Shown here in pieces: positions 2,388 through 52,605 of a stretch of 64,000 nucleotides of DNA; position 1 is the stretch's first letter; each line of letters opens with the position of its first letter. The notes under the pieces are model-generated. The model was not told where the DNA came from and did no database searches. It saw nothing but the letters and a program-made list of their open reading frames with translations. The stretch comes from Candidatus Eiseniibacteriota bacterium (lineage in GTDB: Bacteria > Eisenbacteria > RBG-16-71-46 > SZUA-252), in contig DASXTQ010000042.1 in NCBI GenBank assembly GCA_036505295.1, positions 6,769 to 70,768 on the forward strand, read 5' to 3'. The translations under genes were made by a program, and so were the position numbers.

Positions 2388-2402
2388 TGGCATAGTGGTT
2401 GC
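2388..2402 (+). promoter_or_regulatory. Sigma54 (RpoN) -24/-12 promoter TGGCAT-N5-TTGC, about 80 nt upstream of the 2481 CDS
   Basis: Sequence gaTGGCATagtggTTGCtcctat matches the sigma54 consensus (TGGCAY-N5-TTGC, GG/GC spacing correct). Confidence 0.55.
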
Positions 2403-2480
2403 TCCTATACAGCTCCCGGACGGGGAAGGGCCACACTCAGTGGCTCTCACCAACGGTCGGCAAACTAGGAGGAAAAGACC

Positions 2481-2933
2481 ATGAGGCGATTACCCTTATG
2501 GATCGTGTGCTCCGCCATGGCGGTCTCGCTGACCGCGGCGGCGCCGAATGCGGGCGCGGGCACGAGTGTCTCCATCAACATGCGCGTGGGGGATCCCTAT
2601 CGCGGCCCTAGCCTTGAGTTCCGTCACGAGCCGGACGTCGTCTTGGTACCGGACACGCGCGTCTATTACGTTCGTGACTACGACTACGACATCTATCGGT
2701 ACGGCAACTATTGGTACTACACCTACGACGGAGGTTGGTACCGCGCGCGGCGCTACAATGGCCGCTACGTCTACATCGGCTATGAGTCGGTGCCACGCGC
2801 CGTGGTTATGGTGCCTGTGAAATACCGCAAGCACTGGCGCGAGCCGGGACACGGTAACGCTTACGGGCACTACAAAGATGCCCGCAACGACAAAGGGCAC
2901 GGGCGTGGCCGCGGGCGCGGACACGGGAATTAG
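2481..2933 (+). CDS. Secreted Tyr/Trp/Arg-rich protein of unknown function (paralog 1; VYYVRDYDYDIYRYG..WYY.YDGGWYRAR motif)
   Basis: ATG preceded by AGGAGG RBS. N-terminal signal peptide (MRRLPLWIVCSAMAVSLTAAAP). Shares about 60 aa of near-identical core with the ORF at 3217. Confidence 0.75.
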   Translation: MRRLPLWIVCSAMAVSLTAAAPNAGAGTSVSINMRVGDPYRGPSLEFRHEPDVVLVPDTRVYYVRDYDYDIYRYGNYWYYTYDGGWYRARRYNGRYVYIGYESVPRAVVMVPVKYRKHWREPGHGNAYGHYKDARNDKGHGRGRGRGHGN

Positions 2934-3139: not shown

Positions 3140-3154
3140 TGGCACAGGCATTGC
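3140..3154 (+). promoter_or_regulatory. Sigma54 (RpoN) -24/-12 promoter TGGCAC-N5-TTGC, about 63 nt upstream of the 3217 CDS
   Basis: Sequence cgTGGCACaggcaTTGCtctat is a perfect consensus match. The extended -12 region is the same as at 2399 and 47521. Confidence 0.6.
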
Positions 3155-3216
3155 TCTATCTATGGCCAGATCGCCCCCAGGGCGATGGTAGCAACCAAAG
3201 GAAAAGGAGGGTCCTC

Positions 3217-3804
3217 ATGAAACGGCTATTCAGTTGGACCGCATGCATGGCGTTCGCGCTCGCGCTGAGCTCCTTGACGTCGAGCGCGCTCGCGAGGACC
3301 AGCGTTTCGGTCGACCTGCATTTTGGTGACCGATACCGTGGCCCAGACGTCGTTTTTTATGATGATCCCGATGTCGTCGTGGTACCCGGCACGCGCGTCT
3401 ACTACGTCCGCGACTACGACTACGACATCTATCGGTGCGGCAGGTTCTGGTACTACAACTACGACGGCGGCTGGTACCGCGCGCGTAGTTACCGGGGCCC
3501 GTGGATCTATGTCGGGTATCGTTCCGTGCCGCGGGAGATAAGCTACGTGCCTCATCGCTATCGCAGGCACTGGAGCGACTTCCGCGCCGAGCCGAGGTAC
3601 ACGTATCGCGACTCACGTTCCCGTGACCGTACCTGGCAGGAACGGGATCGCGGCGTACAGAACCGGGATCGCGGCGTACAGAATCGGGATCGCGGCGGGC
3701 AGAATGATCGCGGCGGGCAGAATCGGGATCGGGGTGGGCAGAATCGGGATCGGCGTGATCGCGATCGCAATGACCGCGGCTGGGATGGAAGGCAAGATCG
3801 GTAA
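3217..3804 (+). CDS. Secreted Tyr/Trp/Arg-rich protein of unknown function (paralog 2) with C-terminal RDRG(V/G)QN heptad-repeat tail
   Basis: ATG with AGGAGG RBS (aaggagggtcctcATG) and signal peptide MKRLFSWTACMAFALALSSLTSSALA. Core VVVPGTRVYYVRDYDYDIYRCGRFWYYNYDGGWYRAR is shared with the 2481 ORF. Confidence 0.75.
   Translation: MKRLFSWTACMAFALALSSLTSSALARTSVSVDLHFGDRYRGPDVVFYDDPDVVVVPGTRVYYVRDYDYDIYRCGRFWYYNYDGGWYRARSYRGPWIYVGYRSVPREISYVPHRYRRHWSDFRAEPRYTYRDSRSRDRTWQERDRGVQNRDRGVQNRDRGGQNDRGGQNRDRGGQNRDRRDRDRNDRGWDGRQDR
3640..3762 (+). repeat. About six tandem copies of a 21-bp unit (aa(c/t)cgggatcgcggcg(t/g)(a/g)cag) encoding a (N)RDRG(V/G)Q low-complexity tail
   Basis: Directly visible tandem repetition in sequence. 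One unit is shortened to 18 bp. Confidence 0.8.
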
Positions 3805-44211: not shown

Positions 44212-44531
44212 GGCCGCAGCTCTTGGATTGAGGCCGCCGGGCCGCCCACTGAAGTGGGTACCCACTGCCGGCTTGTGTTCGATGCTCTAATCCGCTATAC
44301 TGCCGGCGTTTCCGCTCCAACTCCCACGGAGCAGTCGAACGGGGGTGCGATGGCCCGCTTCTCCTACTACCTCAGCAGGCAGTGCCTCCACGGGATCATA
44401 TCGCGTTCCATTGATTCATCTGGTCCGCTCGGTTACGCGCATCTTGCTTTGACACGCGGGCTCCGGGCCATGGAATGGCCACTGGCCTCCCCCGGCCAGA
44501 GCCCTCGCCGGCAGGAAAGTTGGTTAGTGAT

Positions 44532-44855
44532 ATGAAAAGGGATCGCGGGTTTGCTCTGCTGCTGCGATTGCTCGTTGGCTTCATTTTCGCGGCCGCACTT
44601 GCGTTGGCAGTTGCTTCGGCGTCACCGCCAGGCGCGTGGGCCAGGACTGCGCCCACGACCGTGGCGTCGGGGGATCCAACGGGCGGAGAGGATTCTCCGA
44701 GCCCGGGACCGAAAAAGGCCACAACGCTAAGAATCGGATCTCAGGGAAGCTCGACCTCGAGCGCTATGCCGTCAGCCCGCCGATACTCAATTTGGCACTG
44801 GTTGGATGACTGGAAAGTGATCGTCGACTCGATTCGAGCAAGGTACCCACTCTAG
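44532..44855 (+). CDS. Hypothetical small membrane/secreted protein
   Basis: ATG with hydrophobic N-terminus (MKRDRGFALLLRLLVGFIFAAALALAVASA). Weak RBS. No homology recognised. Confidence 0.3.
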   Translation: MKRDRGFALLLRLLVGFIFAAALALAVASASPPGAWARTAPTTVASGDPTGGEDSPSPGPKKATTLRIGSQGSSTSSAMPSARRYSIWHWLDDWKVIVDSIRARYPL

Positions 44856-44963
44856 GCCGCTCGAGATCAGGAACGAATCCTTGAAAACGCCCTCTTTACA
44901 TCATGCTCTTAGAGAGATCCGCGATGCCCTTGACAAGGGCATGTACAAAGAGGCGTTGGACTA

Positions 44964-47168
44964 TTGCGAGCGCATTGCCCTGAATCTGGTCACGCCCCAG
45001 AGGTAACAGGTCGGATCGGCGCCCTCAAGCTCGATGCATTCGCAGGACTGGGTCGTTGGCGAGAACTGGTTGCGCTCGGCTCCACCTTGATCGCCGGTTT
45101 AACCTCAAACCGAGAAAGCGAGGCCCTGGGTCGCGTTCACGGACTTACGGGCTTCGGCTATCTGAGACTTGGTGAAATGCGTCTGGCCGAACGCCACCTT
45201 CGAGCCGCCATTCACGTCTACACATGGGATTTGGATGACCTGCCTGCGGCGCTTCGTCAACAGCGGCGACTTTCACTTCTGTACCTCAGTTTGGGTCTCC
45301 TACGCCAATCCTGTTCTGAAATGGAGACCGCCATAGAGATTTCCGATAAGAATTCATGCACATCGGAATCTGGCATCCTGCGGGTCAACCTAGCCGTAGC
45401 GATGAGTAAGCTTGGTACCTTGGAGAAGGTACCCAAATACCTCGACGAGGCGGATGAACTCCTCAGGAGCGCTTCCCGCAAGAAATGGCTCTTGCTTTCA
45501 GCCCTCGTTCGGGCGAATTACCTACGCATCACAGGGCACCCCACGAAGGCGCTCGAAATCCTCGTGCCCGCACTTCAGATGACACGTGAGCAGCGTTACT
45601 CGCGTGAAGAGGCAATTGCTCTCGAATACATCGGCGATTGTTACCTCGCGAAGAGAGATTACAAGCAGGCGCTGGAGCAGTATGAAGGCGCGCTCAAGAT
45701 TGCGGAAGTGACCGCTCCTGATGGCGACCTTATACCCGAACTGAGCCACCGGATGGGCGAGACGTTCATCCGCCTCGGCGATCCGAACGCCGCGATTCTA
45801 CTTTGTGAGCGTGGATTCCGCGTGGCCCGAGCTTTGGGCGATCGGTACGAAGAATGTGCGACCCATCGCGTCTACGCCATGGCGCATCGTGCCGCGGGGA
45901 ATCCCAAGAAGGCGCTCCGTATCGTTGATGAAGGAATCGATCTTGGCAGACAGTACGATATTCCATACGAACTCGGCCGGGCGCTCACATGGGCAGGTGA
46001 GACGCGGTTGCAAGAGCTGGGCCCCGATGAGCAAGCACACGGTAGGCAGCAACTCTGGGAAGCGCGCGCGATATTCGAACGCATGGGACTGCTACCTTGG
46101 GTTCGATCGGTAGATCGCCTGCTCGGATTTGAATCCCAGCCCGAGGCTGCTCTCGATCAGCCGAGCATATCCGCGCTGGATAATCTCGGTGACCTTGATC
46201 GGGGTGCGCTTCGCTTCGGCATCGTTACTTGCAATCGTAAGGTTCGCGAAGCCGTGGAAATTCTGCAGAGCGTCGCACCGAGCCAGATTCCTGTCCTTAT
46301 CACGGGCGAGAGCGGAGTGGGTAAAGAGCTACTTGCTCAGGCGCTCCATCAGATGGGTCCTCGTCGAAAGGAACCCTTCGTACCGGTGAACTGTGGGGCC
46401 ATCTCGGTCAATCTTCTCGATAGCGAATTCTTCGGACATGAACGAGGGGCGTTTACCGGTGCCATTTCGTCCCGTGAGGGTCTGCTCGCCTCCTCCGACA
46501 AGGGGACCCTGTTTCTCGACGAGGTCGGGGAGCTTCCCTCACAAGTTCAGGCCGCCCTACTTCGGGTGTTGGAGACCGGCGAGTTGCGTGCGGTCGGACG
46601 GGACGACGTTAGGAAAATCGAGCTTCGAATCGTTGCGGCTACCAACACGAGGCTTGAGGATCTTGTCGATCGCGGGCTCTTCCGCCAGGACCTCTTCTAC
46701 AGACTCAACGGCATTCGCGTCACAATTCCTCCGCTCCGCGAGCGTGAAGAAGACATAAGGGCATTGTTCCGCTACTTCTGGTCCCAAGCGACCACGGCTG
46801 CAAAGAAGCGCCTCACGATCGAGGACGGCGTCGAGACGGTGCTCTGCGCGTATGACTGGCCCGGTAACGTGCGAGAGCTTCGGCACGAGATCGCTCGCGT
46901 CGTCGCGCTCGCACCCGATAGGTCATTGGTTCGAGGTGAGTCGTTCTTGCCCCAAGTCCAGCGAAAGGACATCGCCTCTCTTCGTCGGGATCGCGAACGG
47001 CGTGATGAAGTGGCGGAGGAACGGTTGCAGATTCTATCGGCTTTGCGCGCCCATCGCGGGAACAAGGCTGAGGCCGCCCGGAGCCTGGGAGGGATGAAAC
47101 GCACCACTCTGATCTACAAAATCGAGCGCTTGGGAATCCGACCCGAGGAGTACCAAGTTAAGGAATAG
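44964..47168 (+). CDS. Sigma54-dependent transcriptional activator (bEBP) with N-terminal TPR-like sensor domain instead of a receiver domain
   Basis: AAA+ sigma54-interaction domain (GESGVGKE, GAFTGA, ...VRELR). C-terminal Fis-type HTH. N-terminal about 400 aa of TPR-like repeats. 5' end probably continues upstream in another frame (see findings). Confidence 0.8.
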   Translation: MRAHCPESGHAPEVTGRIGALKLDAFAGLGRWRELVALGSTLIAGLTSNRESEALGRVHGLTGFGYLRLGEMRLAERHLRAAIHVYTWDLDDLPAALRQQRRLSLLYLSLGLLRQSCSEMETAIEISDKNSCTSESGILRVNLAVAMSKLGTLEKVPKYLDEADELLRSASRKKWLLLSALVRANYLRITGHPTKALEILVPALQMTREQRYSREEAIALEYIGDCYLAKRDYKQALEQYEGALKIAEVTAPDGDLIPELSHRMGETFIRLGDPNAAILLCERGFRVARALGDRYEECATHRVYAMAHRAAGNPKKALRIVDEGIDLGRQYDIPYELGRALTWAGETRLQELGPDEQAHGRQQLWEARAIFERMGLLPWVRSVDRLLGFESQPEAALDQPSISALDNLGDLDRGALRFGIVTCNRKVREAVEILQSVAPSQIPVLITGESGVGKELLAQALHQMGPRRKEPFVPVNCGAISVNLLDSEFFGHERGAFTGAISSREGLLASSDKGTLFLDEVGELPSQVQAALLRVLETGELRAVGRDDVRKIELRIVAATNTRLEDLVDRGLFRQDLFYRLNGIRVTIPPLREREEDIRALFRYFWSQATTAAKKRLTIEDGVETVLCAYDWPGNVRELRHEIARVVALAPDRSLVRGESFLPQVQRKDIASLRRDRERRDEVAEERLQILSALRAHRGNKAEAARSLGGMKRTTLIYKIERLGIRPEEYQVKE

Positions 47169-47509
47169 GTCGTCCCGAGAGGGCAGTCGCCACCCGCCTT
47201 TGTCCTCAATCTATTGCCGCTGAATAGATTATCCCCGATTTCTTGGGGTCAATGACCCCGACCGCCGCGTGAGCCAATTCTCGCTTTTTCTGGCTCTCAC
47301 GAGCCAGTCTGCCTAAGCCATTGTTCCGTATCAGGTAAGCCTCGATAACGGAGCCGCATCACGCTGTCCCCCGTTCATGTGGGGGAGATTCCCCCAATCT
47401 TTCCCACGGTCATCAGGCTGGCAGATTTTTGGCCGATTAGGGTGGTCCGTAAGTAACTGACTAGCAGCAAGTTGTGTTTGTCCGCGTCAAACCCGCTTCC
47501 GACGCCCTG

Positions 47510-47524
47510 TGGCACCTGCGTTGC
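47510..47524 (+). promoter_or_regulatory. Sigma54 (RpoN) -24/-12 promoter TGGCAC-N5-TTGC, 58 nt upstream of the lipoprotein ATG
   Basis: ctgTGGCACctgcgTTGCcctat is a perfect consensus match. Located directly downstream of the bEBP gene. Confidence 0.65.
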
Positions 47525-47581
47525 CCTATTGGCTGGCCAGGAATGAGGGCCACGGAGGGCGGTGAAACAAGGAGGCGGGCA

Positions 47582-47785
47582 ATGGAACGGACCAGGAACT
47601 TGAAAAACGGACTCAAGGCAGCGACGGTGGCGTTCTTCCTCGCGGCAGCTCTTCTCTCCACGGGTTGCAGCAACAACGCGCTGATGAACCCGCAGCCAGA
47701 CTTGGGCGCGCAGGGCAGCCAGACGGCGCACCCGACGGGTGGAAACGAACTCAACCCGACTGGCGGTAACGAGCTGAATCCGTAG
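47582..47785 (+). CDS. Small lipoprotein with tandem PTGGNELN repeats
   Basis: AAGGAGG RBS. Lipobox LLSTGC. C-terminal two exact 24-bp/8-aa repeats. Confidence 0.65.
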   Translation: MERTRNLKNGLKAATVAFFLAAALLSTGCSNNALMNPQPDLGAQGSQTAHPTGGNELNPTGGNELNP

Positions 47786-47791
47786 GCCCCG

Positions 47792-50700
47792 TCAAGATAC
47801 GGGCGCCTTTGGAGTGATCGCCGACAGAGTGGAGGACACATGAGGACTCCCGAGGTAGGTCTTGCGGTCGTCAGCATTGAGTCTACCGGCAATCTCTCGG
47901 ATGATCCTCAGAGCATGGGTCGAACGCGATTGCGCGGCCCTTACGTCCCCGCGTTGGGAAGCAAGCCTTCCCAATGCATAGCTCATTTTCCACGCGGCCT
48001 CCAACACTCCAGCAGTTTCCGCGTAGGCGAGAGCGCGCTCCATCGTCGGCACCAAGACGCTGGCACTGTCGATGTAGGGGTTCTCAGTTATGATCTCAGC
48101 CAGGGCTACACCTCCATGGATCTGGATGAGAACGAGACCTTGGGATTCGGCATTCAGAATCAGGCTGATGATCGCCCCTACCGCAGCATTTGGATCAAGT
48201 TTGGAATTCAACCTCTGCATTTCGATCTGGACCCCAGGTAGATCCTCCCAGTCCAACGTTTCGAGCAAGGCTTTCTCGGCCTTCGCGAGGAAACTCCTCG
48301 CTGCTTCTGGATCGCCCTGAATCGACGCAATTCTCCCGAGTAACCAATCCAACCTGGGCTTTACTTCAAGCGAGCCGTAATCATTCACAATTCGCTGAGC
48401 ATCCCGCACCAGCGTCTCCGCTTCGGCATATGAGCCAATGTGAAACAAGGTCAAAGCTTCCAGCTCCATAGCTTTGGCCATTTGGCCGAGGTCGTTCAAC
48501 GCCTCAGCCGTAGCCCTTCCGTGCCGCGCCATGTCGATCGCCTCCATATACTCAGCAAGGAGGATCCGGTTGATGGCAGCCCCTGAACAGGCGGCAACGA
48601 ATTCGAATGCACTTCCCATACGGACCGCCCAACGAGACGACAACGCGTGCTGATCAACCGCTTCGCGGATTCTGCCGAGTGCGTATAGGATTCCGCCACG
48701 ATTGGAGAGGATGCGAGCCTTGAATGAGTCGTAGCCGGACCTCTCCGCGATATCCCATGCTTCTGTGATCCAATCCAGTGATTCTGGCACCTTGCTTGAA
48801 TAGAACGCAGCTGTTGAAAGGGCATTGCAGATACGCATCCGCCAGTAATCGTTACAGTTGAATTCGAGCCCTCTTTCCAGGATCCGTGTGGCTTCTGCAC
48901 GCTCTCCCGTCCGTACCAGCGCTGCCCCAAGCCCATATGTCAGGGAGGCCAACTCATCATCGATGCCGGGCGTGCCCTCGTAAAGCTCCAGGATCTTGCG
49001 AATCCTCTCTATCGCTGCACGCCGAGTCTCACCCCCTCGGTGCCGCCACTCTATCTCTGCGAGTCCCGCGTGGCTGCGCAGAAGCAAGACGGGATCAGGA
49101 TTCCCACGTGCGAGATCTATCGCGCTTGAAAACCGCACGCCGGCCTCATCTAGTCTCCCCAACGATGCGAATATGACGCCCAATTGGTACTCACGTGATG
49201 CCCTTAGCGGCCCGGAATCTGGTTCGGTCTCCCAGGGAAATTGCTCGCGCAGATAAGACTCTGCTCGTTTGTCATCGCCGGCCTTATGGAGAATCTCGGA
49301 AAGCATTAGGGATACTTCGCGCGCCAATTTGATGTCCTTGGTTTCAGTTACGATTCCAAGGCAGCGCTCAAGTCGGGAACCGGCTCGGCGATAATCCCCC
49401 CGCTTCGCAGCCTCCTCTGAGGCCCATAGGCCTTCGCGCAAGGCCCCGGAATCTGGTTGATAGGCCAAAGCGAGGTCCGCTCTTTCCTCCCTACTCAGGG
49501 GTCCATCTCCCAAGGCGAGTAGGGAGAGCGCGCAGCGCTCTCGCAGCACCTCCCCGGCCCTCTCGCGAACGACCACGCGTATACCTTCAGAAGAGATCTT
49601 CACTCGCGATCCAGACAACCTAATCCATCCCTTCGCGTGTAACCCGGCGAGTAGGTCAGGCCCCAGATCACGGTCGAATATCAATTCACTCTGGGTTGAA
49701 GGAACCCCCGAAGGCAGGATCTCTAGAGTTACGAGGGTCCGCTTCTCATTCTCGCTTAGCCGATCCCAGGCCGAAGACCAGGGATCCAGGATCCCAGGAA
49801 TCTGGATTGACTGAATTTGCTGATTCTCCCGGAAGAACCAACAGTTCTCGCGACGTGCAATGAGGTGCTGCTTGATGAGCGAAAGTATCGCGGCGCTAAG
49901 GGCCCGGCCGTTCCCACCTGAGATCTCGTTGATCTTAGAAACAAGAGGCCTTTCAAATCGGGAACCGCCCAGATATCCATTTACAAATCCAGGGATATCG
50001 ACCAGAGAAAACGGTGGCAGTATTAGTTCGCTCTCAAATGATTCGAGCTGGGTGATAGGAATTGTTGTAAGAGCGACGAGCAGTACCCTTCTTCTCTCGG
50101 ATCGCTCAAGAGAAAGGGCCCACAAGTACCGCGCTAGCGGGCGAAATACCCCAACCATCGCATCTGCATCATCGGAAGATGGCGTTGTCCAGACGATGAT
50201 AGAATCATCGCTCGCTGAGGCCCACAGTTCCTCCGCGATGCCAGCAGGGCTCTCACCGCTCTCGGTCACAGCGTTCCCCAATAGCTGACGAATCTGGACC
50301 GCCAGGGTTGAATCCGTAGCGAGAGATAATTGAACAGGCCGAGCACCCCTGGAGATCGCCCGTTGCGCGACCTCCTCCATCAGGGCCCTTTTCCCAATCC
50401 CCGGTTCCCCTGTGACATAGAGCAAAGTCGGCGTGCCGGGCTCCTCCGAGAACAGCAATCTCTCGATCTCCGCAATTTCCTTCTCGCGTCCGACGAGCTT
50501 CCCGCCAAGGATCTCACCAATGCGATCCTCGACGCCGAAGCCCTCCATGAATTCGTCGGCGCTGCCCTGCCTGAGCCCGGGCTGGCGCTCCAGCGCGCGC
50601 ATGACGACACGCTCGAGATCCACGGGCACTCGAACGCCATGCACGCCCGGCGAAGGAACCCAACCCTCGAGTTGCCCCGAGATCACTTCTCGTACGGTAC

Positions 50701-51298
50701 GTCCCTCGAAAGGATGCTTGCCGGTAAGGGCTTCATACGCCATCACGCCGACCGAATACAGATCACTCCGAACATCGGCGGGCGCGCCCTCCCAGACTTC
50801 GGGAGCCGCATACCCGGGCGTCCCGGAGAGTCCAGCCGCGGATCCGCCGCTCCCTCCCATTCCGACGTCGGTGATCTTCACGACCCCACCGGCGCCCAAC
50901 AGAATGTTTCCGGGCTTCAAGTCCCCGTGGATTTCTCCGTGGCAGTGGAGGTGCGCGAGCCCGCGTAGGAGGCTTGTCAAAATGCGCCGGACCTCATCCG
51001 CGGACTGCGGCTCGCCCATTTTCCGTACCCAATCGGCCCCCTCGATGAACTCCATCGTGTAGTAGGCCTCGCCGGAGGGCAGCGCGCCCCAGTCGAAGAC
51101 CTGGATCAGGTTCTCGTGGCGTATTTGGCGGAGGGTGTCGAACTCGCGTCGAAGGAACGCTGATTCGGCGGGTGTGACCAGCTTCAACGCAAGCTCGCGA
51201 TCGCGTATCGAGTCATAAACCCGATACACGCGGCTCGAGCCCCCCTCACCGAGGAGGGAACGGACTTCGTAACGCTTTGGAATCGACGGGGATGTCAT
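47792..51298 (-). CDS. Multidomain Ser/Thr protein kinase - AAA/STAND ATPase - TPR repeat protein
   Basis: Hanks kinase motifs (VYRVYD...ALKLV, HGDLKPGNILL, DVGMGG, GTPGYAAPE). P-loop GEPGIGKR. Extensive C-terminal TPR-like repeats. 1168 aa. Confidence 0.85.
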   Translation of the reverse strand: MTSPSIPKRYEVRSLLGEGGSSRVYRVYDSIRDRELALKLVTPAESAFLRREFDTLRQIRHENLIQVFDWGALPSGEAYYTMEFIEGADWVRKMGEPQSADEVRRILTSLLRGLAHLHCHGEIHGDLKPGNILLGAGGVVKITDVGMGGSGGSAAGLSGTPGYAAPEVWEGAPADVRSDLYSVGVMAYEALTGKHPFEGRTVREVISGQLEGWVPSPGVHGVRVPVDLERVVMRALERQPGLRQGSADEFMEGFGVEDRIGEILGGKLVGREKEIAEIERLLFSEEPGTPTLLYVTGEPGIGKRALMEEVAQRAISRGARPVQLSLATDSTLAVQIRQLLGNAVTESGESPAGIAEELWASASDDSIIVWTTPSSDDADAMVGVFRPLARYLWALSLERSERRRVLLVALTTIPITQLESFESELILPPFSLVDIPGFVNGYLGGSRFERPLVSKINEISGGNGRALSAAILSLIKQHLIARRENCWFFRENQQIQSIQIPGILDPWSSAWDRLSENEKRTLVTLEILPSGVPSTQSELIFDRDLGPDLLAGLHAKGWIRLSGSRVKISSEGIRVVVRERAGEVLRERCALSLLALGDGPLSREERADLALAYQPDSGALREGLWASEEAAKRGDYRRAGSRLERCLGIVTETKDIKLAREVSLMLSEILHKAGDDKRAESYLREQFPWETEPDSGPLRASREYQLGVIFASLGRLDEAGVRFSSAIDLARGNPDPVLLLRSHAGLAEIEWRHRGGETRRAAIERIRKILELYEGTPGIDDELASLTYGLGAALVRTGERAEATRILERGLEFNCNDYWRMRICNALSTAAFYSSKVPESLDWITEAWDIAERSGYDSFKARILSNRGGILYALGRIREAVDQHALSSRWAVRMGSAFEFVAACSGAAINRILLAEYMEAIDMARHGRATAEALNDLGQMAKAMELEALTLFHIGSYAEAETLVRDAQRIVNDYGSLEVKPRLDWLLGRIASIQGDPEAARSFLAKAEKALLETLDWEDLPGVQIEMQRLNSKLDPNAAVGAIISLILNAESQGLVLIQIHGGVALAEIITENPYIDSASVLVPTMERALAYAETAGVLEAAWKMSYALGRLASQRGDVRAAQSRSTHALRIIREIAGRLNADDRKTYLGSPHVSSTLSAITPKAPVS

Positions 51299-51398: not shown

Positions 51399-51989
51399 TC
51401 ACCCGCCCGCCGCTATGGATTCAAGGCGAGCTTTGACCGCGGGCCACTCATCGTCCGTAATGCTGAAATAGACCGTGTCGCGCACGACCCCCCGGTCGCT
51501 GATCGCATGCTTACGAAGGGTACCTTCCTCCTTCGCACCAATTCGGAGAATCGCGTCTCGCGAACGACGGTTGAGCGCGTTCGTCTTGAGCTCGACGCGC
51601 CGGCAGTGCCAAGTGTCAAAGGCGTGGCTCAGCATCAGGTATTTCGCCTCGGAATTCACGTGGGTGCGCTGAAAGGTTCGGCCGACCCAAGTCCATCCGA
51701 TCTCGACCCGGCCGTGGTTGGGCTCGATGCTGCCGAAACGGGTGCACCCGAGAACTCGCCCGGTCACGCGATCCACCGTCGCGAACGGGAGCGCCTTCCT
51801 CTCGGCCTGCGCGCGGAGCGCCTCCTCCAGATACCGCAGAAGATCGTCACGTGTGTCCACAACATTGAGCGTCCAGCGCCATAGCTCGGGATCCAGGCCG
51901 ATTTCAGCCAGCCCCTCGAAATGCCGATCGAGCGTGAGCGGCTCCAGGCGGATGCGGATGCCCTGCAGGGTTACGGGGATGATTTCCAT
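51399..51989 (-). CDS. GNAT-family N-acetyltransferase (RimJ/RimL-like)
   Basis: Start MEIIPVTLQGIRIRLEPL. Acetyltransferase-3-type core (RVELKTNALNRRSRDAILRIGAKEEG). Confidence 0.7.
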   Translation of the reverse strand: MEIIPVTLQGIRIRLEPLTLDRHFEGLAEIGLDPELWRWTLNVVDTRDDLLRYLEEALRAQAERKALPFATVDRVTGRVLGCTRFGSIEPNHGRVEIGWTWVGRTFQRTHVNSEAKYLMLSHAFDTWHCRRVELKTNALNRRSRDAILRIGAKEEGTLRKHAISDRGVVRDTVYFSITDDEWPAVKARLESIAAGG

Positions 51990-52221
51990 GGGTGGCCCGA
52001 TATAGCCAGATGCAAGGGGCAACGTCCCCATCATTTTGCGAGGCCTGGCACGCGGCAAGCCGGAACTCCAAGCCCGACAACGGGGCCGACGGCCTACCCG
52101 TCCGGCACGCGCCATGCGAATTGACCGGTGCGAGTCCCTCCCTGAAGTTGGCCACTCCAACTTCGACGGATTGACGCAAGCGTACCCTAGGCGGCAAGGC
52201 AGAAGGGAATCGGAGGAGATC

Positions 52222-52605
52222 ATGAGGACTGTACTGAGAAGCGAAGGTGGTTTCACCCTGATCGAGCTGGTGATCGTCATCGTAATCCTTGGCATTCTGG
52301 CGTCGGTCGCGATCCCGAGATACGAGGACATGCGCGAGCAGGCGCGGGTGTCCACGCTCAAGGGGCAGCTGGGTTCGATCCGCTCCGCGGTTGCGATTCA
52401 GTACGCCCGCAACGCGCTGACCAGCAGCGCCGGGTTCCCCACGCTCGACGGAACGATTTTCGCGGATGCCCGTGTCCCCAAAGAGCCGGTGATGAACTCG
52501 AACGCGGTAAAGACGACCGCCGGTGTCGACAACGCGGGTGGCTGGCAGTACACCCAGACGAGCGGCATGGTGAAGGCCAACCTGAACGCCTATTCAAGCT
52601 ACTGA
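52222..52605 (+). CDS. Type IV pilin / pseudopilin-like protein with prepilin-type N-terminal methylation motif
   Basis: GGAGG RBS. N-terminal GGFTLIELVIVIVILGILASVAIPRY (class III signal peptide, G-F-T-L-I-E). Confidence 0.75.
   Translation: MRTVLRSEGGFTLIELVIVIVILGILASVAIPRYEDMREQARVSTLKGQLGSIRSAVAIQYARNALTSSAGFPTLDGTIFADARVPKEPVMNSNAVKTTAGVDNAGGWQYTQTSGMVKANLNAYSSY

What the first reader, a model, noticed from the sequence alone, without database searches (positions are those of the whole stretch)
44964..51298. Lower-GC island: TPR-sensor sigma54 activator, a sigma54-driven repeat lipoprotein and a giant STK-AAA-TPR protein
From about 44.9 kb to 50.4 kb the sequence is visibly AT-richer (about 50-55% GC against about 68-70% in flanks). 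The island encodes three elements. (i) A bEBP whose sensor domain is an about 400-aa TPR array rather than REC/GAF/PAS. (ii) A perfect sigma54 promoter 58 nt upstream of a 67-aa lipoprotein with two PTGGNELN repeats, 340 nt after the bEBP stop. (iii) A convergent 1168-aa Ser/Thr kinase - STAND/AAA NTPase - TPR protein. The arrangement suggests a self-contained, horizontally acquired signalling module. The bEBP probably drives the lipoprotein gene and possibly the sigma54 promoters at 2388 and 3140. Cross-talk between the STK and the bEBP is conceivable.
Basis: partly seen in the sequence, partly recalled or inferred. Interest (0 to 1): 0.8.

Follow-up and report, generated by a model that had tools for sequence, protein, structure and literature searches.

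The report
Polymorphic two-peptide, two-receptor signalling locus
A fixed chromosomal locus in uncultured soil Eisenbacteria pairs two small secreted proteins with two cytoplasmic repeat-domain sensors (a sigma-54 activator and a giant kinase) that vary together like signal-receptor "dialects", which would be peptide signalling of the Gram-positive kind in a very different bacterium.

Summary
The described features are real. The TPR-bEBP, the perfect sigma-54 promoter, the 67-aa lipoprotein and the 1168-aa kinase-STAND-TPR protein are all present. It is not a recently inserted island. The same block sits between the same fatty-acid and GNAT/pilin genes in every relative examined (Candidatus Eisenbacteria), and it is GC3-poor in all of them.

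The locus holds two hypervariable cassettes.
- The lipoprotein (pepA) has a near-invariant leader and a hypervariable C-terminal 7-8-residue unit, present twice. The two copies differ at 97 synonymous but only 15 nonsynonymous codons. The unit co-varies with the adjacent kinase STAND/TPR region (Mantel r=0.40-0.43, p<=0.0006) and not with the kinase domain.

The sigma-54 promoter is conserved in all 26 loci. Synonymous divergence shows that the cassettes have an older, exchanged history separate from the backbone.

Best reading: two peptide/TPR-receptor pairs with pherotype-like alleles, analogous to RRNPP, comQXP or agr systems but not homologous to them. Ligand binding, export and re-import are inferred and untested.

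The parts
44273..44301 (+). Conserved TTGTGT-17 nt-TATACT box, a candidate sigma-70-type promoter of the pepB-bEBP unit. A conserved 5' hairpin and an SD-ATG follow it.
   Evidence: The block CTAATCnGCTATACT and the downstream sequence are conserved across 11 loci. The consensus scanner did not call it because the -35 hexamer matches only 3 of 6 positions. Its function is inferred.
44452..44524 (+). Near-invariant ~72-nt leader element just upstream of pepB. It is predicted to fold as a three-way RNA structure (hairpins GGCCAUGGAAUGGCC and CUGGCCUCCCCCGGCCAG).
   Evidence: It is conserved at the nucleotide level in 10 loci but is read in different frames relative to pepB, so it is non-coding. 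RNAalifold gives -30.5 kcal/mol, and two pairs show compensatory changes. No Rfam family matches.
44532..44855 (+). pepB, a 107-aa pre-protein. It has a Sec-type signal peptide ending AWA|R. The mature ~70-aa protein has the sequence RTAPTTVASGDPTGGEDSPSPGPKK, then a variable middle, then a Trp-rich amphipathic C-terminus.
   Evidence: It is conserved upstream of the bEBP in 12 other loci; L013, at a contig end, lacks its start. Its mature sequence co-varies with bEBP residues 40-200 (Mantel r=0.79, p=1e-4) and not with the AAA+ part (r=0.15). No family matched the longer ORF 44475-44855, which contains pepB.
44881..44985 (+). Out-of-frame remnant of the original bEBP N-terminus (TTG..KTPSLHHALREIRDALDKGMYKEALDYCERIA..).
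   Evidence: The frame-1 translation is homologous to the N-termini of the L002, L030 and L013 bEBPs, and the reading frame then switches to that of ORF 44964. This is either a real frameshift or an assembly error.
44964..45563 (+). bEBP residues 1-200: the hypervariable first TPRs of the sensor (variable cassette 1, together with pepB).
   Evidence: Mean pairwise identity is 26-54% here, against 64-90% downstream. pS is saturated and pN is 0.39. Discrete allele classes follow pepB and not pepA.
45564..47168 (+). bEBP conserved part: the distal TPRs (residues 201-410), the sigma-54 interaction AAA+ domain with GAFTGA (421-586), the lid, and the Fis-type HTH (686-722).
   Evidence: Pfam hits: Sigma54_activat 3.4e-62, AAA_lid_14, HTH_8. 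The AF2 model of residues 1-420 has pLDDT 87 and forms a 19-helix TPR superhelix. The best fold matches are MalT domain III, APPBP2 and Rap/NprR. There is no TM segment.
47269..47435 (+). Conserved intergenic boxes. They are a terminator-like hairpin with a T-run (47269-47293), the palindrome CTGGCTCTCACGAGCCAG (47290-47307), GGGGGAGATTCCCCC (47381-47395) and GGC-N9-GCC with an AT-rich centre (47420-47434). They are candidate terminator, UAS and bending sites.
   Evidence: They stand out as blocks in the alignment of 20 loci. The terminator-like site was called. Which box the bEBP binds was not determined.
47510..47524 (+). Sigma-54 promoter (-24 TGGCAC / -12 TTGC) of pepA.
   Evidence: It is a perfect match. 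GG-N10-GC is present at the same place in all 26 loci, 52-59 nt from the ATG in 23 of them. In L006 and L029 it was found by eye, and in L023 the contig end cuts it. The sequence upstream of it is not conserved.
47534..47552 (+). 5'-UTR hairpin UGGCC-AGGAAUGAG-GGCCA of pepA. It resembles the first hairpin of the pepB leader.
   Evidence: It is conserved, and the stem sequence changes to GGCU/AGCC in some loci. The pepB leader contains the similar GGCCATGGAATGGCC. Its function is unknown.
47582..47785 (+). pepA, a 67-aa lipoprotein-type precursor. It has a near-invariant leader (MERTRNLK..AALLSTGC SNNALMNPQ), a linker, and a hypervariable C-terminal unit present twice (TGGNELNP at 47735-47758 and 47759-47782).
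   Evidence: 95 homologues were found, plus 13 further representatives in a profile search of 1.84 billion proteins that returned 14 in all. All intact full-length members have the same architecture. The two copies of the unit differ at 97 synonymous and 15 nonsynonymous codons over 26 loci. The unit co-varies with the STK TPR region.
47795..50340 (-). STK residues ~320-1168: the STAND NTPase (NOD, Walker A GEPGIGK) and ~14 TPRs. This is hypervariable cassette 2, and its 3' end lies 6 nt from the end of pepA.
   Evidence: Mean pairwise identity is 26-54%. AAA_16 and TPR Pfam hits are present. The best fold hit of the AF2 model is the STAND-TPR protein 6mfv. Clusters of this region match the pepA unit classes. 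Mantel r=0.40-0.43, p=2e-4 to 6e-4. pS is saturated even where the kinase dS is 0.48.
50459..51298 (-). STK residues 1-280: a conserved Hanks-type Ser/Thr kinase domain (K39, HGD126, N131, DVG144).
   Evidence: Pkinase 1.4e-35. Mean pairwise identity is 79-94%. GC3 is 0.74-0.78. There is no TM segment in the protein.

Best explanation
The locus is a vertically inherited, internally polymorphic signalling module of a Candidatus Eisenbacteria clade. It is built from two peptide/receptor pairs.

Pair 1 is pepB, a Sec-exported ~70-aa protein, together with the N-terminal TPRs of the sigma-54 activator that follows it. The two genes are probably co-transcribed.

Pair 2 is pepA together with the STAND-TPR sensor of the convergent Ser/Thr kinase. 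pepA is a lipoprotein-type precursor whose C-terminus carries two copies of a 7-8-residue unit ending in Pro.

Proposed mechanism:
- The bEBP activates the conserved sigma-54 promoter of pepA.
- pepA is exported, anchored and processed to release its C-terminal units.
- The units, or the exported proteins, are sensed allele-specifically by the cognate cytoplasmic TPR domains.
- Sensing switches the AAA+ activator and the STAND-gated kinase. This closes a positive loop on pepA and sends kinase output to unknown targets.
- Alleles are kept as discrete, ancient classes that are exchanged between lineages by recombination, as at pherotype loci.

Shown: the anatomy, conserved synteny, promoter conservation, the two hypervariable cassettes, their separate co-variation, purifying selection that keeps the two pepA units identical, and the discordant history of cassettes and backbone.

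Inferred: direct peptide-TPR binding, export and processing, re-import, the bEBP-promoter link, and any cell-cell (quorum or kin) function.
For: - Synteny and composition: the block is conserved with the same flanks in 8 other loci (L002, L003, L025-L030) and on the contig that carries P0110. The bEBP and STK genes are GC3-poor in L002-L004 and, by segment, on average over 13 loci.
- Rearranged relative: in L004 the order of the two halves is swapped, but the pepA-STK 3' adjacency and the pepB-bEBP 5' adjacency are both kept.
- pepA family: more than 100 members were found. Apart from a few truncated or frameshifted entries, they have a near-invariant leader and a hypervariable, duplicated (rarely triplicated) C-terminal unit that always ends the protein.
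- Selection on the units: the two copies differ at 97 synonymous against 15 nonsynonymous codons, so their identity is kept at the protein level and not by DNA homogenisation.
- Mosaic conservation: the kinase domain is 79-94% identical against 26-54% for NOD/TPR. The bEBP AAA+ domain is ~90% identical against 26-54% for residues 1-200.
- Class matching: STK-TPR clusters match pepA unit classes, while the backbone phylogeny does not. For example, window against L008 is 97% identical in the bEBP AAA+ part but 42% in the STK TPR region, and the peptides differ.
- Mantel tests: pepA against STK-TPR gives r=0.40-0.43, p<=6e-4. pepA against the kinase domain, the bEBP AAA+ part and the bEBP N-terminus gives r about 0. 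pepB against the bEBP N-terminus gives r=0.79, p=1e-4. pepB against the bEBP AAA+ part gives r=0.15.
- Cassette history: window against L025 has kinase dS 0.48 but saturated NOD/TPR. L025 against L030 has TPR dS 0.76, below kinase dS 1.19.
- Extra receptor: in L027 the STK next to pepA is a unique type paired with a unique peptide, and a second, distal STK belongs to another class, like an orphan receptor.
- Promoter: the sigma-54 promoter and its 5'-UTR are conserved in all 26 loci.
- Cell location: both sensors lack TM segments, and the peptides carry signal peptides.
- Fold: the bEBP sensor model is a TPR superhelix resembling MalT domain III and Rap/NprR peptide receptors.
- Precedent: tandem pheromone duplication in propeptides is known in Rap-Phr systems (PMC11343458).
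Against: - Each co-varying pair is also physically contiguous. The end of pepA is 6 nt from the STK 3' end, and pepB lies just upstream of the bEBP 5' end. Co-variation could therefore reflect inheritance as one recombination block and not ligand-receptor co-evolution.
- No binding, processing or import was tested.
- No oligopeptide importer or dedicated protease is in the window. A diderm cell would need passage across two membranes.
- pN/pS in the variable parts is 0.5-0.65 and not above 1, because synonymous sites are saturated, so positive selection is not demonstrated.
- The TPR domains show no significant sequence relationship to RRNPP receptors (RapH E=0.013, Rap3T E=0.077).
- pepB is ~70 aa with an amphipathic tail, which is unlike a short pheromone.
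- The window's own bEBP seems frameshifted at its start. Several relatives have frameshifted STKs, which could be assembly errors or decay.
- Which intergenic box is the bEBP binding site is unknown.
Confidence: 0.5

Rival explanations
1. Linkage only. The locus is an ordinary regulatory module: a bEBP that drives a small lipoprotein, plus a PknK-like STAND kinase. It happens to contain two recombination-prone, fast-diverging segments. The small proteins are envelope components and not ligands, and their co-variation with the neighbouring TPRs reflects shared inheritance of adjacent DNA.
For: Each peptide/TPR pair is contiguous in the DNA. pN/pS is below 1 in all variable parts. No transporter or protease is encoded nearby.
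Against: It does not explain several observations.
- The variable part of pepA is a short unit kept twice, identical at the protein level despite near-saturated synonymous differences.
- The variability stops exactly at the leader and at the kinase domain.
- Two unrelated secreted proteins each abut a variable TPR.
- Both adjacencies survive the rearrangement in L004.
Confidence: 0.2
2. Immune sensor. The kinase-STAND-TPR protein is an Avs-like anti-phage or conflict sensor. Its TPR sensor diversifies in an arms race with invaders and the kinase is its effector. The bEBP and the small proteins belong to the response or are unrelated.
For: A conserved N-terminal effector joined to a hypervariable STAND/TPR sensor is the Avs pattern. 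Avs3 appears among the fold hits. The kinase domain matches defence-kinase models (PD-T4-6, mad6, Stk2). Allele replacement occurs at a fixed locus.
Against: - The PADLOC hits cover only the generic kinase domain, and nothing matches the NOD/TPR region.
- The gene is in the same housekeeping context in every relative examined, not patchy or in a defence island.
- It does not explain the duplicated hypervariable peptide or the second pair, pepB with the bEBP N-terminus.
Confidence: 0.15
3. This is a recently and horizontally acquired low-GC island whose bEBP drives the lipoprotein gene and perhaps the sigma-54 sites at 2388 and 3140.
For: The GC dip is real. The sigma-54 promoter lies next to the bEBP gene. 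The variable cassettes do show exchange between lineages.
Against: The block is conserved with the same flanks, and its bEBP and STK genes are GC3-poor, in relatives whose bEBP is only 57-76% identical. No mobility genes, tRNA genes or repeats were seen at its edges. No upstream boxes are shared with the sites at 2388 and 3140.
Confidence: 0.05

Closest known systems
RRNPP(A) peptide quorum-sensing systems of Bacillota (Rap-Phr, NprR-NprX, PlcR-PapR, AimR-AimP)
   Same: - A small gene for an exported propeptide lies next to the gene of a cytoplasmic TPR receptor.
- The presumed active part is the extreme C-terminus of the precursor.
- Tandem duplication of the pheromone inside the propeptide is known (PMC11343458, PMC9765709).
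- Peptide and TPR domain diversify together.
- The layout is that of an autoregulatory loop.
- The bEBP sensor model superposes on Rap and NprR (TM 0.54-0.62).
   Different: - There is no significant sequence homology.
- The output domains are a sigma-54 AAA+ activator and a STAND-gated Ser/Thr kinase, not an HTH or Rap effector.
- One precursor is a lipoprotein and the other is a ~70-aa protein.
- The host is a candidate phylum outside Bacillota. Genetically encoded peptide signals are described as typical of Bacillota (PMC10075063).
- Re-import is unproven.
Pherotype loci comQXP (Bacillus) and agrBDC (Staphylococcus)
   Same: A contiguous hypervariable block covers the signal-specifying part of the peptide and the sensor part of the receptor. 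It is bounded by conserved sequence: here the pepA leader and the kinase domain. Discrete allele classes are discordant with the backbone phylogeny. This comparison rests on general knowledge of those loci.
   Different: Those receptors are membrane histidine kinases that sense modified peptides from outside. Here both sensors are cytoplasmic TPR proteins, and no modifying enzyme is evident.
STAND regulators with TPR sensors (MalT, AfsR, PknK of Mycobacterium tuberculosis, PH0952)
   Same: The architecture is a P-loop NOD (AAA_16) followed by a TPR sensor. PknK-like proteins also have an N-terminal Hanks kinase. The top fold hit is 6mfv. The bEBP sensor resembles MalT domain III (TM 0.68).
   Different: The known members sense small molecules or proteins. 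They are not described with an adjacent co-varying peptide gene or with allele classes.
Bacterial enhancer-binding proteins (NtrC/NifA/PspF class)
   Same: It has a Sigma54_activat AAA+ domain with GAFTGA, a lid and a Fis-type HTH. A conserved -24/-12 promoter lies next to the gene.
   Different: The sensor is a ~400-aa TPR superhelix, not a REC, GAF, PAS or V4R domain, and its first half is hypervariable. About 40 such TPR-bEBPs were found. The four named by a source that carry the TPR sensor are all from Eisenbacteria; one partial hit, which matches only the AAA+ start, is labelled Blastocatellia.

Membership tests
RRNPP(A) quorum-sensing receptors | Cytoplasmic receptor with a TPR-type peptide-binding domain | tested here: met
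   Neither protein has a TM segment or signal peptide. A TPR superhelix is predicted.
RRNPP(A) quorum-sensing receptors | Homology of the TPR domain to Rap/NprR/PlcR/PrgX/AimR | tested here: not met
   phmmer against PDB gives RapH E=0.013 and Rap3T E=0.077, while the best hits are LGN/Pins. By fold, MalT domain III scores above Rap/NprR. There are no RRNPP Pfam hits.
RRNPP(A) quorum-sensing receptors | N-terminal HTH or Rap-type effector domain fused to a C-terminal TPR domain | tested here: not met
   The bEBP has an N-terminal TPR domain followed by AAA+ and HTH_8. The STK has an N-terminal kinase followed by NOD and TPR.
RRNPP(A) quorum-sensing receptors | Adjacent small gene encoding a secreted propeptide | tested here: met
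   pepB (Sec signal peptide) lies upstream of the bEBP. pepA (signal peptide plus Cys) abuts the STK 3' end.
RRNPP(A) quorum-sensing receptors | Mature peptide is released, re-imported (Opp) and binds the receptor | not testable with these tools
   This needs peptidomics and binding assays. No Opp genes are in the window.
Sigma-54 enhancer-binding protein | AAA+ Sigma54_activat domain with a GAFTGA loop, plus a DNA-binding HTH | tested here: met
   PF00158 scores 3.4e-62 over residues 421-586. The sequence contains ERGAFTGA. PF02954 covers 686-722.
Sigma-54 enhancer-binding protein | A cognate -24/-12 promoter under its control | tested here: inconclusive
   A perfect promoter lies 341 nt downstream and is conserved in 26 loci. 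Dependence on this bEBP was not tested, and the UAS was not identified.
STAND NTPase (MalT/AfsR/PknK-like) | P-loop NOD followed by a repeat sensor | tested here: met
   AAA_16 covers residues 267-371, with Walker A GEPGIGK. About 14 TPRs span 603-1161. The top fold hit is 6mfv at E=8.7e-13.
Hanks-type Ser/Thr kinase | Kinase domain with the catalytic Lys, catalytic loop Asp/Asn and DFG Asp | tested here: met
   Pkinase scores 1.4e-35. K39 (ALK), HGDLKPGN (a non-RD kinase) and DVG are present in the sequence. Activity was not tested.
Bacterial lipoprotein (SPase II substrate) | Signal peptide with a lipobox ending in Cys | tested here: inconclusive
   A positively charged n-region, a hydrophobic core and the sequence LLSTGC are invariant across the family. 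The -3 position is Ser and not Leu. It fits the permissive PROSITE-type pattern (recalled from general knowledge). No lipoprotein predictor was available.
Avs / antiviral STAND defence | Match of the NTPase or sensor to known defence models, and a defence-island context | tested here: not met
   The PADLOC hits are restricted to the kinase domain. The neighbours are housekeeping genes and are conserved.

The most novel reading that the evidence does not exclude
This is a genetically encoded peptide communication or self-recognition system with pherotypes in a candidate phylum far from Bacillota. The cell contexts suggest a diderm. It has two parallel channels. In one, a duplicated 7-8-mer cut from a lipoprotein precursor is read by a STAND-gated Ser/Thr kinase. 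In the other, a second secreted protein is read by the TPR sensor of a sigma-54 activator. If so, it evolved independently of RRNPP systems and uses output domains never before linked to peptide sensing.
Probability: 0.35. Interest if true: 0.9.

Novelty: new variant of a known kind. Interest (0 to 1): 0.78.

Why it matters
Signalling by ribosomally made peptides read by cytoplasmic TPR receptors is regarded as a hallmark of Bacillota and their mobile elements. Finding the same logic elsewhere would show that it arose more than once and can be wired to transcription through sigma-54 and to protein phosphorylation. That logic comprises an exported precursor, an active C-terminus, a duplicated unit, a co-diversifying TPR sensor, discrete exchangeable alleles and an autoregulatory promoter. 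Here it is assembled from a sigma-54 activator and a STAND kinase in uncultured soil Eisenbacteria.

It also gives a concrete ligand hypothesis for two large and poorly understood protein classes: TPR-sensor bEBPs and PknK-like kinase-STAND-TPR proteins. The natural allele series, with dozens of peptide/TPR pairs, is a ready-made specificity panel for binding experiments with synthetic peptides. No cultivation of the organism would be needed.

Tried and rejected
- PADLOC and NCBIfam scans of the three proteins gave only generic kinase and AAA+ matches, and nothing for pepA, the ORF containing pepB, or the NOD/TPR region.
- Rfam found no family in 43.8-48.2 kb.
- The consensus promoter scan called no sigma-70 site in the island.
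- The genome-contig scan with the pepA profile gave only 6 loci. Two are unrelated lipoproteins (L009, L010). Two are short contigs binned as Blastocatellia and Rokubacteria, probably mis-binned.
- The metagenome scan gave 14 mostly short contigs.
- The word-indexed protein search with the STK variable region returned only 10 proteins.
- In one search my pepA query was translated one base out of frame. Those 'pep' rows were ignored, and pepA was re-located by pattern.
- Alignment A6 used guessed coordinates and was discarded in favour of the MAFFT alignment.
- A readthrough or fusion of pepB and the bEBP was considered, because the two are in the same frame in some loci. It was rejected because the frames differ in L002 and others.
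- A lanthipeptide or other RiPP reading (conserved leader, variable core, kinase domain) was considered. It was rejected because the cores have no Cys, many have no Ser or Thr, and no modifying enzymes are present.
- pepA as a kinase substrate was rejected for the same reason.
- Shared UAS boxes between the pepA promoter and the sigma-54-like sites at 2388 and 3140 were sought and not found.
- pN/pS above 1 was sought and not found, because synonymous sites are saturated.

Full report
**Observation.** The GC dip is real but weaker than stated. The region 44964-50400 is 57.6% GC against 65.6% for the rest of the window, and it is the lowest 5.4-kb stretch, about 3 sd below the mean. It is mainly a third-codon-position effect. 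GC3 is 0.62 for the bEBP and 0.64 for the STK, against 0.75-0.89 in neighbouring genes.

Pfam confirms both large proteins.
- ORF 44964-47168 has TPR hits over residues 70-330, then Sigma54_activat (421-586), AAA_lid_14 and HTH_8.
- ORF 47792-51298 has Pkinase (10-205), AAA_16 (267-371) and many TPR hits.

The sigma-54 consensus TGGCAC-N5-TTGC lies at 47510-47524 without a mismatch. The small gene is 47582-47785. It encodes 67 aa with LLSTGC and two C-terminal TGGNELNP units.

**Organism and context.** Proteins identical to pepA and the STK are deposited as Candidatus Eisenbacteria MAG proteins. The rest of the window is housekeeping: Suf, NAD synthase, signal peptidase I, beta-oxidation and others.

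**Not an inserted island.** I fetched contexts of bEBP and pepA homologues from long contigs.
- L002, L003 and L025-L030, and the contig that carries P0110, share one order: FadB, thiolase, FadD, sometimes a methyltransferase, bEBP, small gene, STK, GNAT, pilin-like gene. The P0110 contig lacks the GNAT and pilin genes.
- L004 is the most distant, with a bEBP 57-60% identical. The STK and small gene there lie before the bEBP, but the elements remain together.
- In L002, L003 and L004 the bEBP and STK genes have GC3 of 0.61-0.72 against 0.80-0.91 in their flanks.

Low GC is a stable property of the module.

**The small lipoprotein, pepA.** A protein search returned 95 homologues. A profile search of 1.84 billion cluster representatives returned only 14, so the family is narrow. 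Apart from a few truncated or frameshifted entries, they share one design.
- The first ~38 residues are almost invariant: MERTRNLKSGLKAATVAVFFAAALLSTGC-SNNALMNPQ.
- A short linker follows.
- A 7-8-residue unit ending in Pro is then present twice, rarely three times, and always ends the protein.

The unit differs sharply between sequences. Examples are TGGNELNP, AGNDLKP, GGQPSNP, GGQVQLP, SGSEMKP, DGHIANP and AGNNVNP.

Across 26 loci, the two copies within one gene differ at 97 synonymous but only 15 nonsynonymous codons. In the window, 6 of 8 codons differ and the peptide is identical. The copies are therefore old at the DNA level and are kept identical at the protein level. This is the signature of a short peptide whose exact sequence matters and whose dose is doubled.

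**The promoter.** The GG-N10-GC core is present at the same place in all 26 loci. It lies 52-59 nt from the ATG in the 23 loci where the pattern scan found it; in L006 and L029 I found it by eye, and in L023 the contig end cuts it. A conserved 5'-UTR and SD follow it, and the sequence just upstream is free to vary.

The bEBP-pepA spacer also contains conserved boxes: a terminator-like hairpin, a palindrome at 47290-47307, GGGGGAGATTCCCCC, and GGC-N9-GCC with an AT-rich centre. These fit a terminator plus enhancer and bending sites. I could not assign the bEBP site.

**Mosaic conservation.**

| Region | Mean pairwise identity |
|---|---|
| STK kinase domain | 79-94% |
| STK residues 320-1160 (NOD + TPR) | 26-54% |
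| bEBP residues 1-200 | 26-54% |
| bEBP residues 200-400 | 64-85% |
| bEBP AAA+ | ~90% |

The GC minimum follows the variable parts. GC3 is 0.60 in the bEBP N-terminus and 0.65-0.67 in the STK NOD and TPR regions. It is 0.78 in the kinase domain (means over 13 loci).

**Co-variation, pair 2 (pepA with the STK sensor).** Clustering by the STK TPR region recovers three peptide classes.
- xGGxExNP octamers
- AGN(D/E)xKP/QP
- xG(Q/H)xxNP

The backbone phylogeny does not recover them. Window and L008 are 97% identical in the bEBP AAA+ part but 42% identical in the STK TPR region, and their peptides differ.

| Mantel comparison | r | p |
|---|---|---|
| pepA unit vs STK TPR | 0.40-0.43 | 2e-4 to 6e-4 |
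| pepA unit vs kinase domain | -0.06 | ns |
| pepA unit vs bEBP AAA+ | 0.05 | ns |
| pepA unit vs bEBP N-terminus | 0.0 | ns |

**A second pair.** The bEBP N-terminus has its own allele classes, unrelated to pepA, so I examined the DNA upstream of it. It has a Sec signal peptide ending AWA|R. The mature protein of about 70 aa begins RTAPxTTVxGDP, followed by a variable acidic, Pro-rich stretch and PGPKK. A variable middle and a Trp-rich amphipathic tail complete it.

Its variable motif tracks the bEBP N-terminal classes.
- GDPTGGEDSP occurs in window, L002, L030 and L013.
- GDPDDPESPS occurs in L026 and L028.
- GDPTDGDQAP occurs in L006 and L027.

The Mantel test gives r=0.79 (p=1e-4) against bEBP residues 40-200, but r=0.14-0.15 against the rest of the bEBP. 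In the rearranged L004, both adjacencies are preserved: pepA with the STK 3' end, and pepB with the bEBP 5' end.

**History of the cassettes.**
- Window vs L025: kinase dS is 0.48, while NOD/TPR synonymous sites are saturated (pS 0.73-0.75).
- L025 vs L030 (same peptide class): TPR dS is 0.76, lower than kinase dS of 1.19.

The cassettes therefore have an older history, exchanged between lineages and separate from the backbone, as at pherotype loci. pN/pS is 0.5-0.65 in the variable parts, so recent positive selection is not shown.

L027 carries two STKs. The one next to pepA is a unique type, at most 41% identical to all others, paired with a unique peptide (GGQVQLP/GGHVQIP). The distal one belongs to another class and is 74-78% identical to L006, L026 and L028, like an orphan receptor.

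**Structures and location.** Neither sensor protein has a TM segment or signal peptide. The AF2 model of bEBP residues 1-420 has pLDDT 87 and is a 19-helix TPR superhelix. By TM-score its best matches are APPBP2 (a degron-peptide receptor, 0.71), MalT domain III (0.68), Rap (0.58-0.62) and NprR (0.54).

The STK model has pLDDT 71 overall, and the kinase part is poor. It shows a P-loop NOD and about 14 TPRs, and its top hit is the STAND-TPR protein 6mfv. At the sequence level there is no significant relationship to RRNPP receptors.

**Interpretation.** The best-supported reading is two peptide/TPR-receptor pairs with exchangeable allele classes, wired to a sigma-54 activator and a STAND-gated kinase. 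The bEBP probably drives pepA.

This works like RRNPP systems and like comQXP or agr pherotype loci. Tandemly duplicated pheromones in propeptides are known in Rap-Phr (PMC11343458, PMC9765709). Genetically encoded peptide signals are described as typical of Bacillota (PMC10075063). This locus is not a member of those families: the homology test and the domain-architecture test both failed.

The main caveat is that each co-varying pair is also contiguous DNA, so linkage alone could produce the correlation. Binding, processing, export across two membranes and re-import are all inferred.

The rivals I retain are linkage-only, an Avs-like immune sensor, and a recent horizontal-transfer island. 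I give them 0.2, 0.15 and 0.05.

**Verdict.** The real content of the locus is considerably more interesting than described. It is a polymorphic, two-channel, peptide-associated signalling locus of a kind not described outside Bacillota.

Noticed in passing
window 44452-44524 (and 44273-44360): A nearly invariant ~72-nt element lies just upstream of pepB. It is read in different frames in different loci, so it is non-coding. It is predicted to fold as a three-way RNA structure with two compensatory pairs. Further upstream lie a conserved TATACT box, a 5' hairpin and a conserved SD-ATG that opens a short ORF of variable sequence. No Rfam family matches. It may be a cis-regulatory leader.
   Followed up: partly
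window 44881-44990: The bEBP gene appears frameshifted near its 5' end. The homologue of the N-terminal helix of the L002, L030 and L013 bEBPs is encoded in another frame and ends in a stop. The annotated TTG start at 44964 would give a slightly truncated protein. This is either a real mutation or an assembly error. The JGI contig L001 encodes the same 734-aa bEBP.
   Followed up: partly
window 47534-47552 and 44466-44480: The 5' leaders of both pepA and pepB carry a short GGCC-stem hairpin with a GGAAUG-containing loop. The loop is GGA-rich, as in CsrA-type binding sites (recalled from memory). This may mean shared post-transcriptional control.
   Followed up: no
window 2388-2933 and 3140-3804: The two other sigma-54-like sites precede two paralogous secreted proteins (2481-2933 and about 3217-3804). 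Both share the motif YYVRDYDYDIYR..WYYxYDGGWYRAR and neither has a family match. Their core promoters resemble that of pepA (TTGCyCTAT), but no upstream boxes are shared.
   Followed up: partly
L027 8234-15228; L021 500-7399; L029 4674-5349: Some relatives carry two tandem STK-STAND-TPR genes (L027, and L021 where one is frameshifted) or two pepB copies (L029). In L027 the distal STK belongs to a different TPR class from the one next to pepA.
   Followed up: partly
L003 13064-15972; L007; L022: The STK gene is split by frameshifts in several relatives. Either sensors are decaying in some lineages or these are metagenome assembly errors.
   Followed up: no
window 47582-47695 and homologues: The pepA leader is conserved even at synonymous sites. 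Its pS is 0.36, against 0.57-0.78 in the bEBP and STK segments. This suggests nucleotide-level constraint or frequent homogenisation of the conserved flank of the cassette.
   Followed up: no
window 51399-52605: A GNAT (Acetyltransf_3) gene and a prepilin-type (N_methyl) gene follow the STK in the window and in nine of the ten relatives whose context beyond the STK was read; L004 and the P0110 contig lack them. They have normal GC3. They may be functionally linked to the module, for example in peptide modification or export, or they may be merely syntenic.
   Followed up: no
L005 (DASYSA010000418.1) and L007 (QHRS01000329.1): Short contigs carrying this Eisenbacteria-type locus are binned in public MAGs labelled Blastocatellia and Rokubacteria. 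One is 99% identical to the window. This is probably mis-binning.
   Followed up: no
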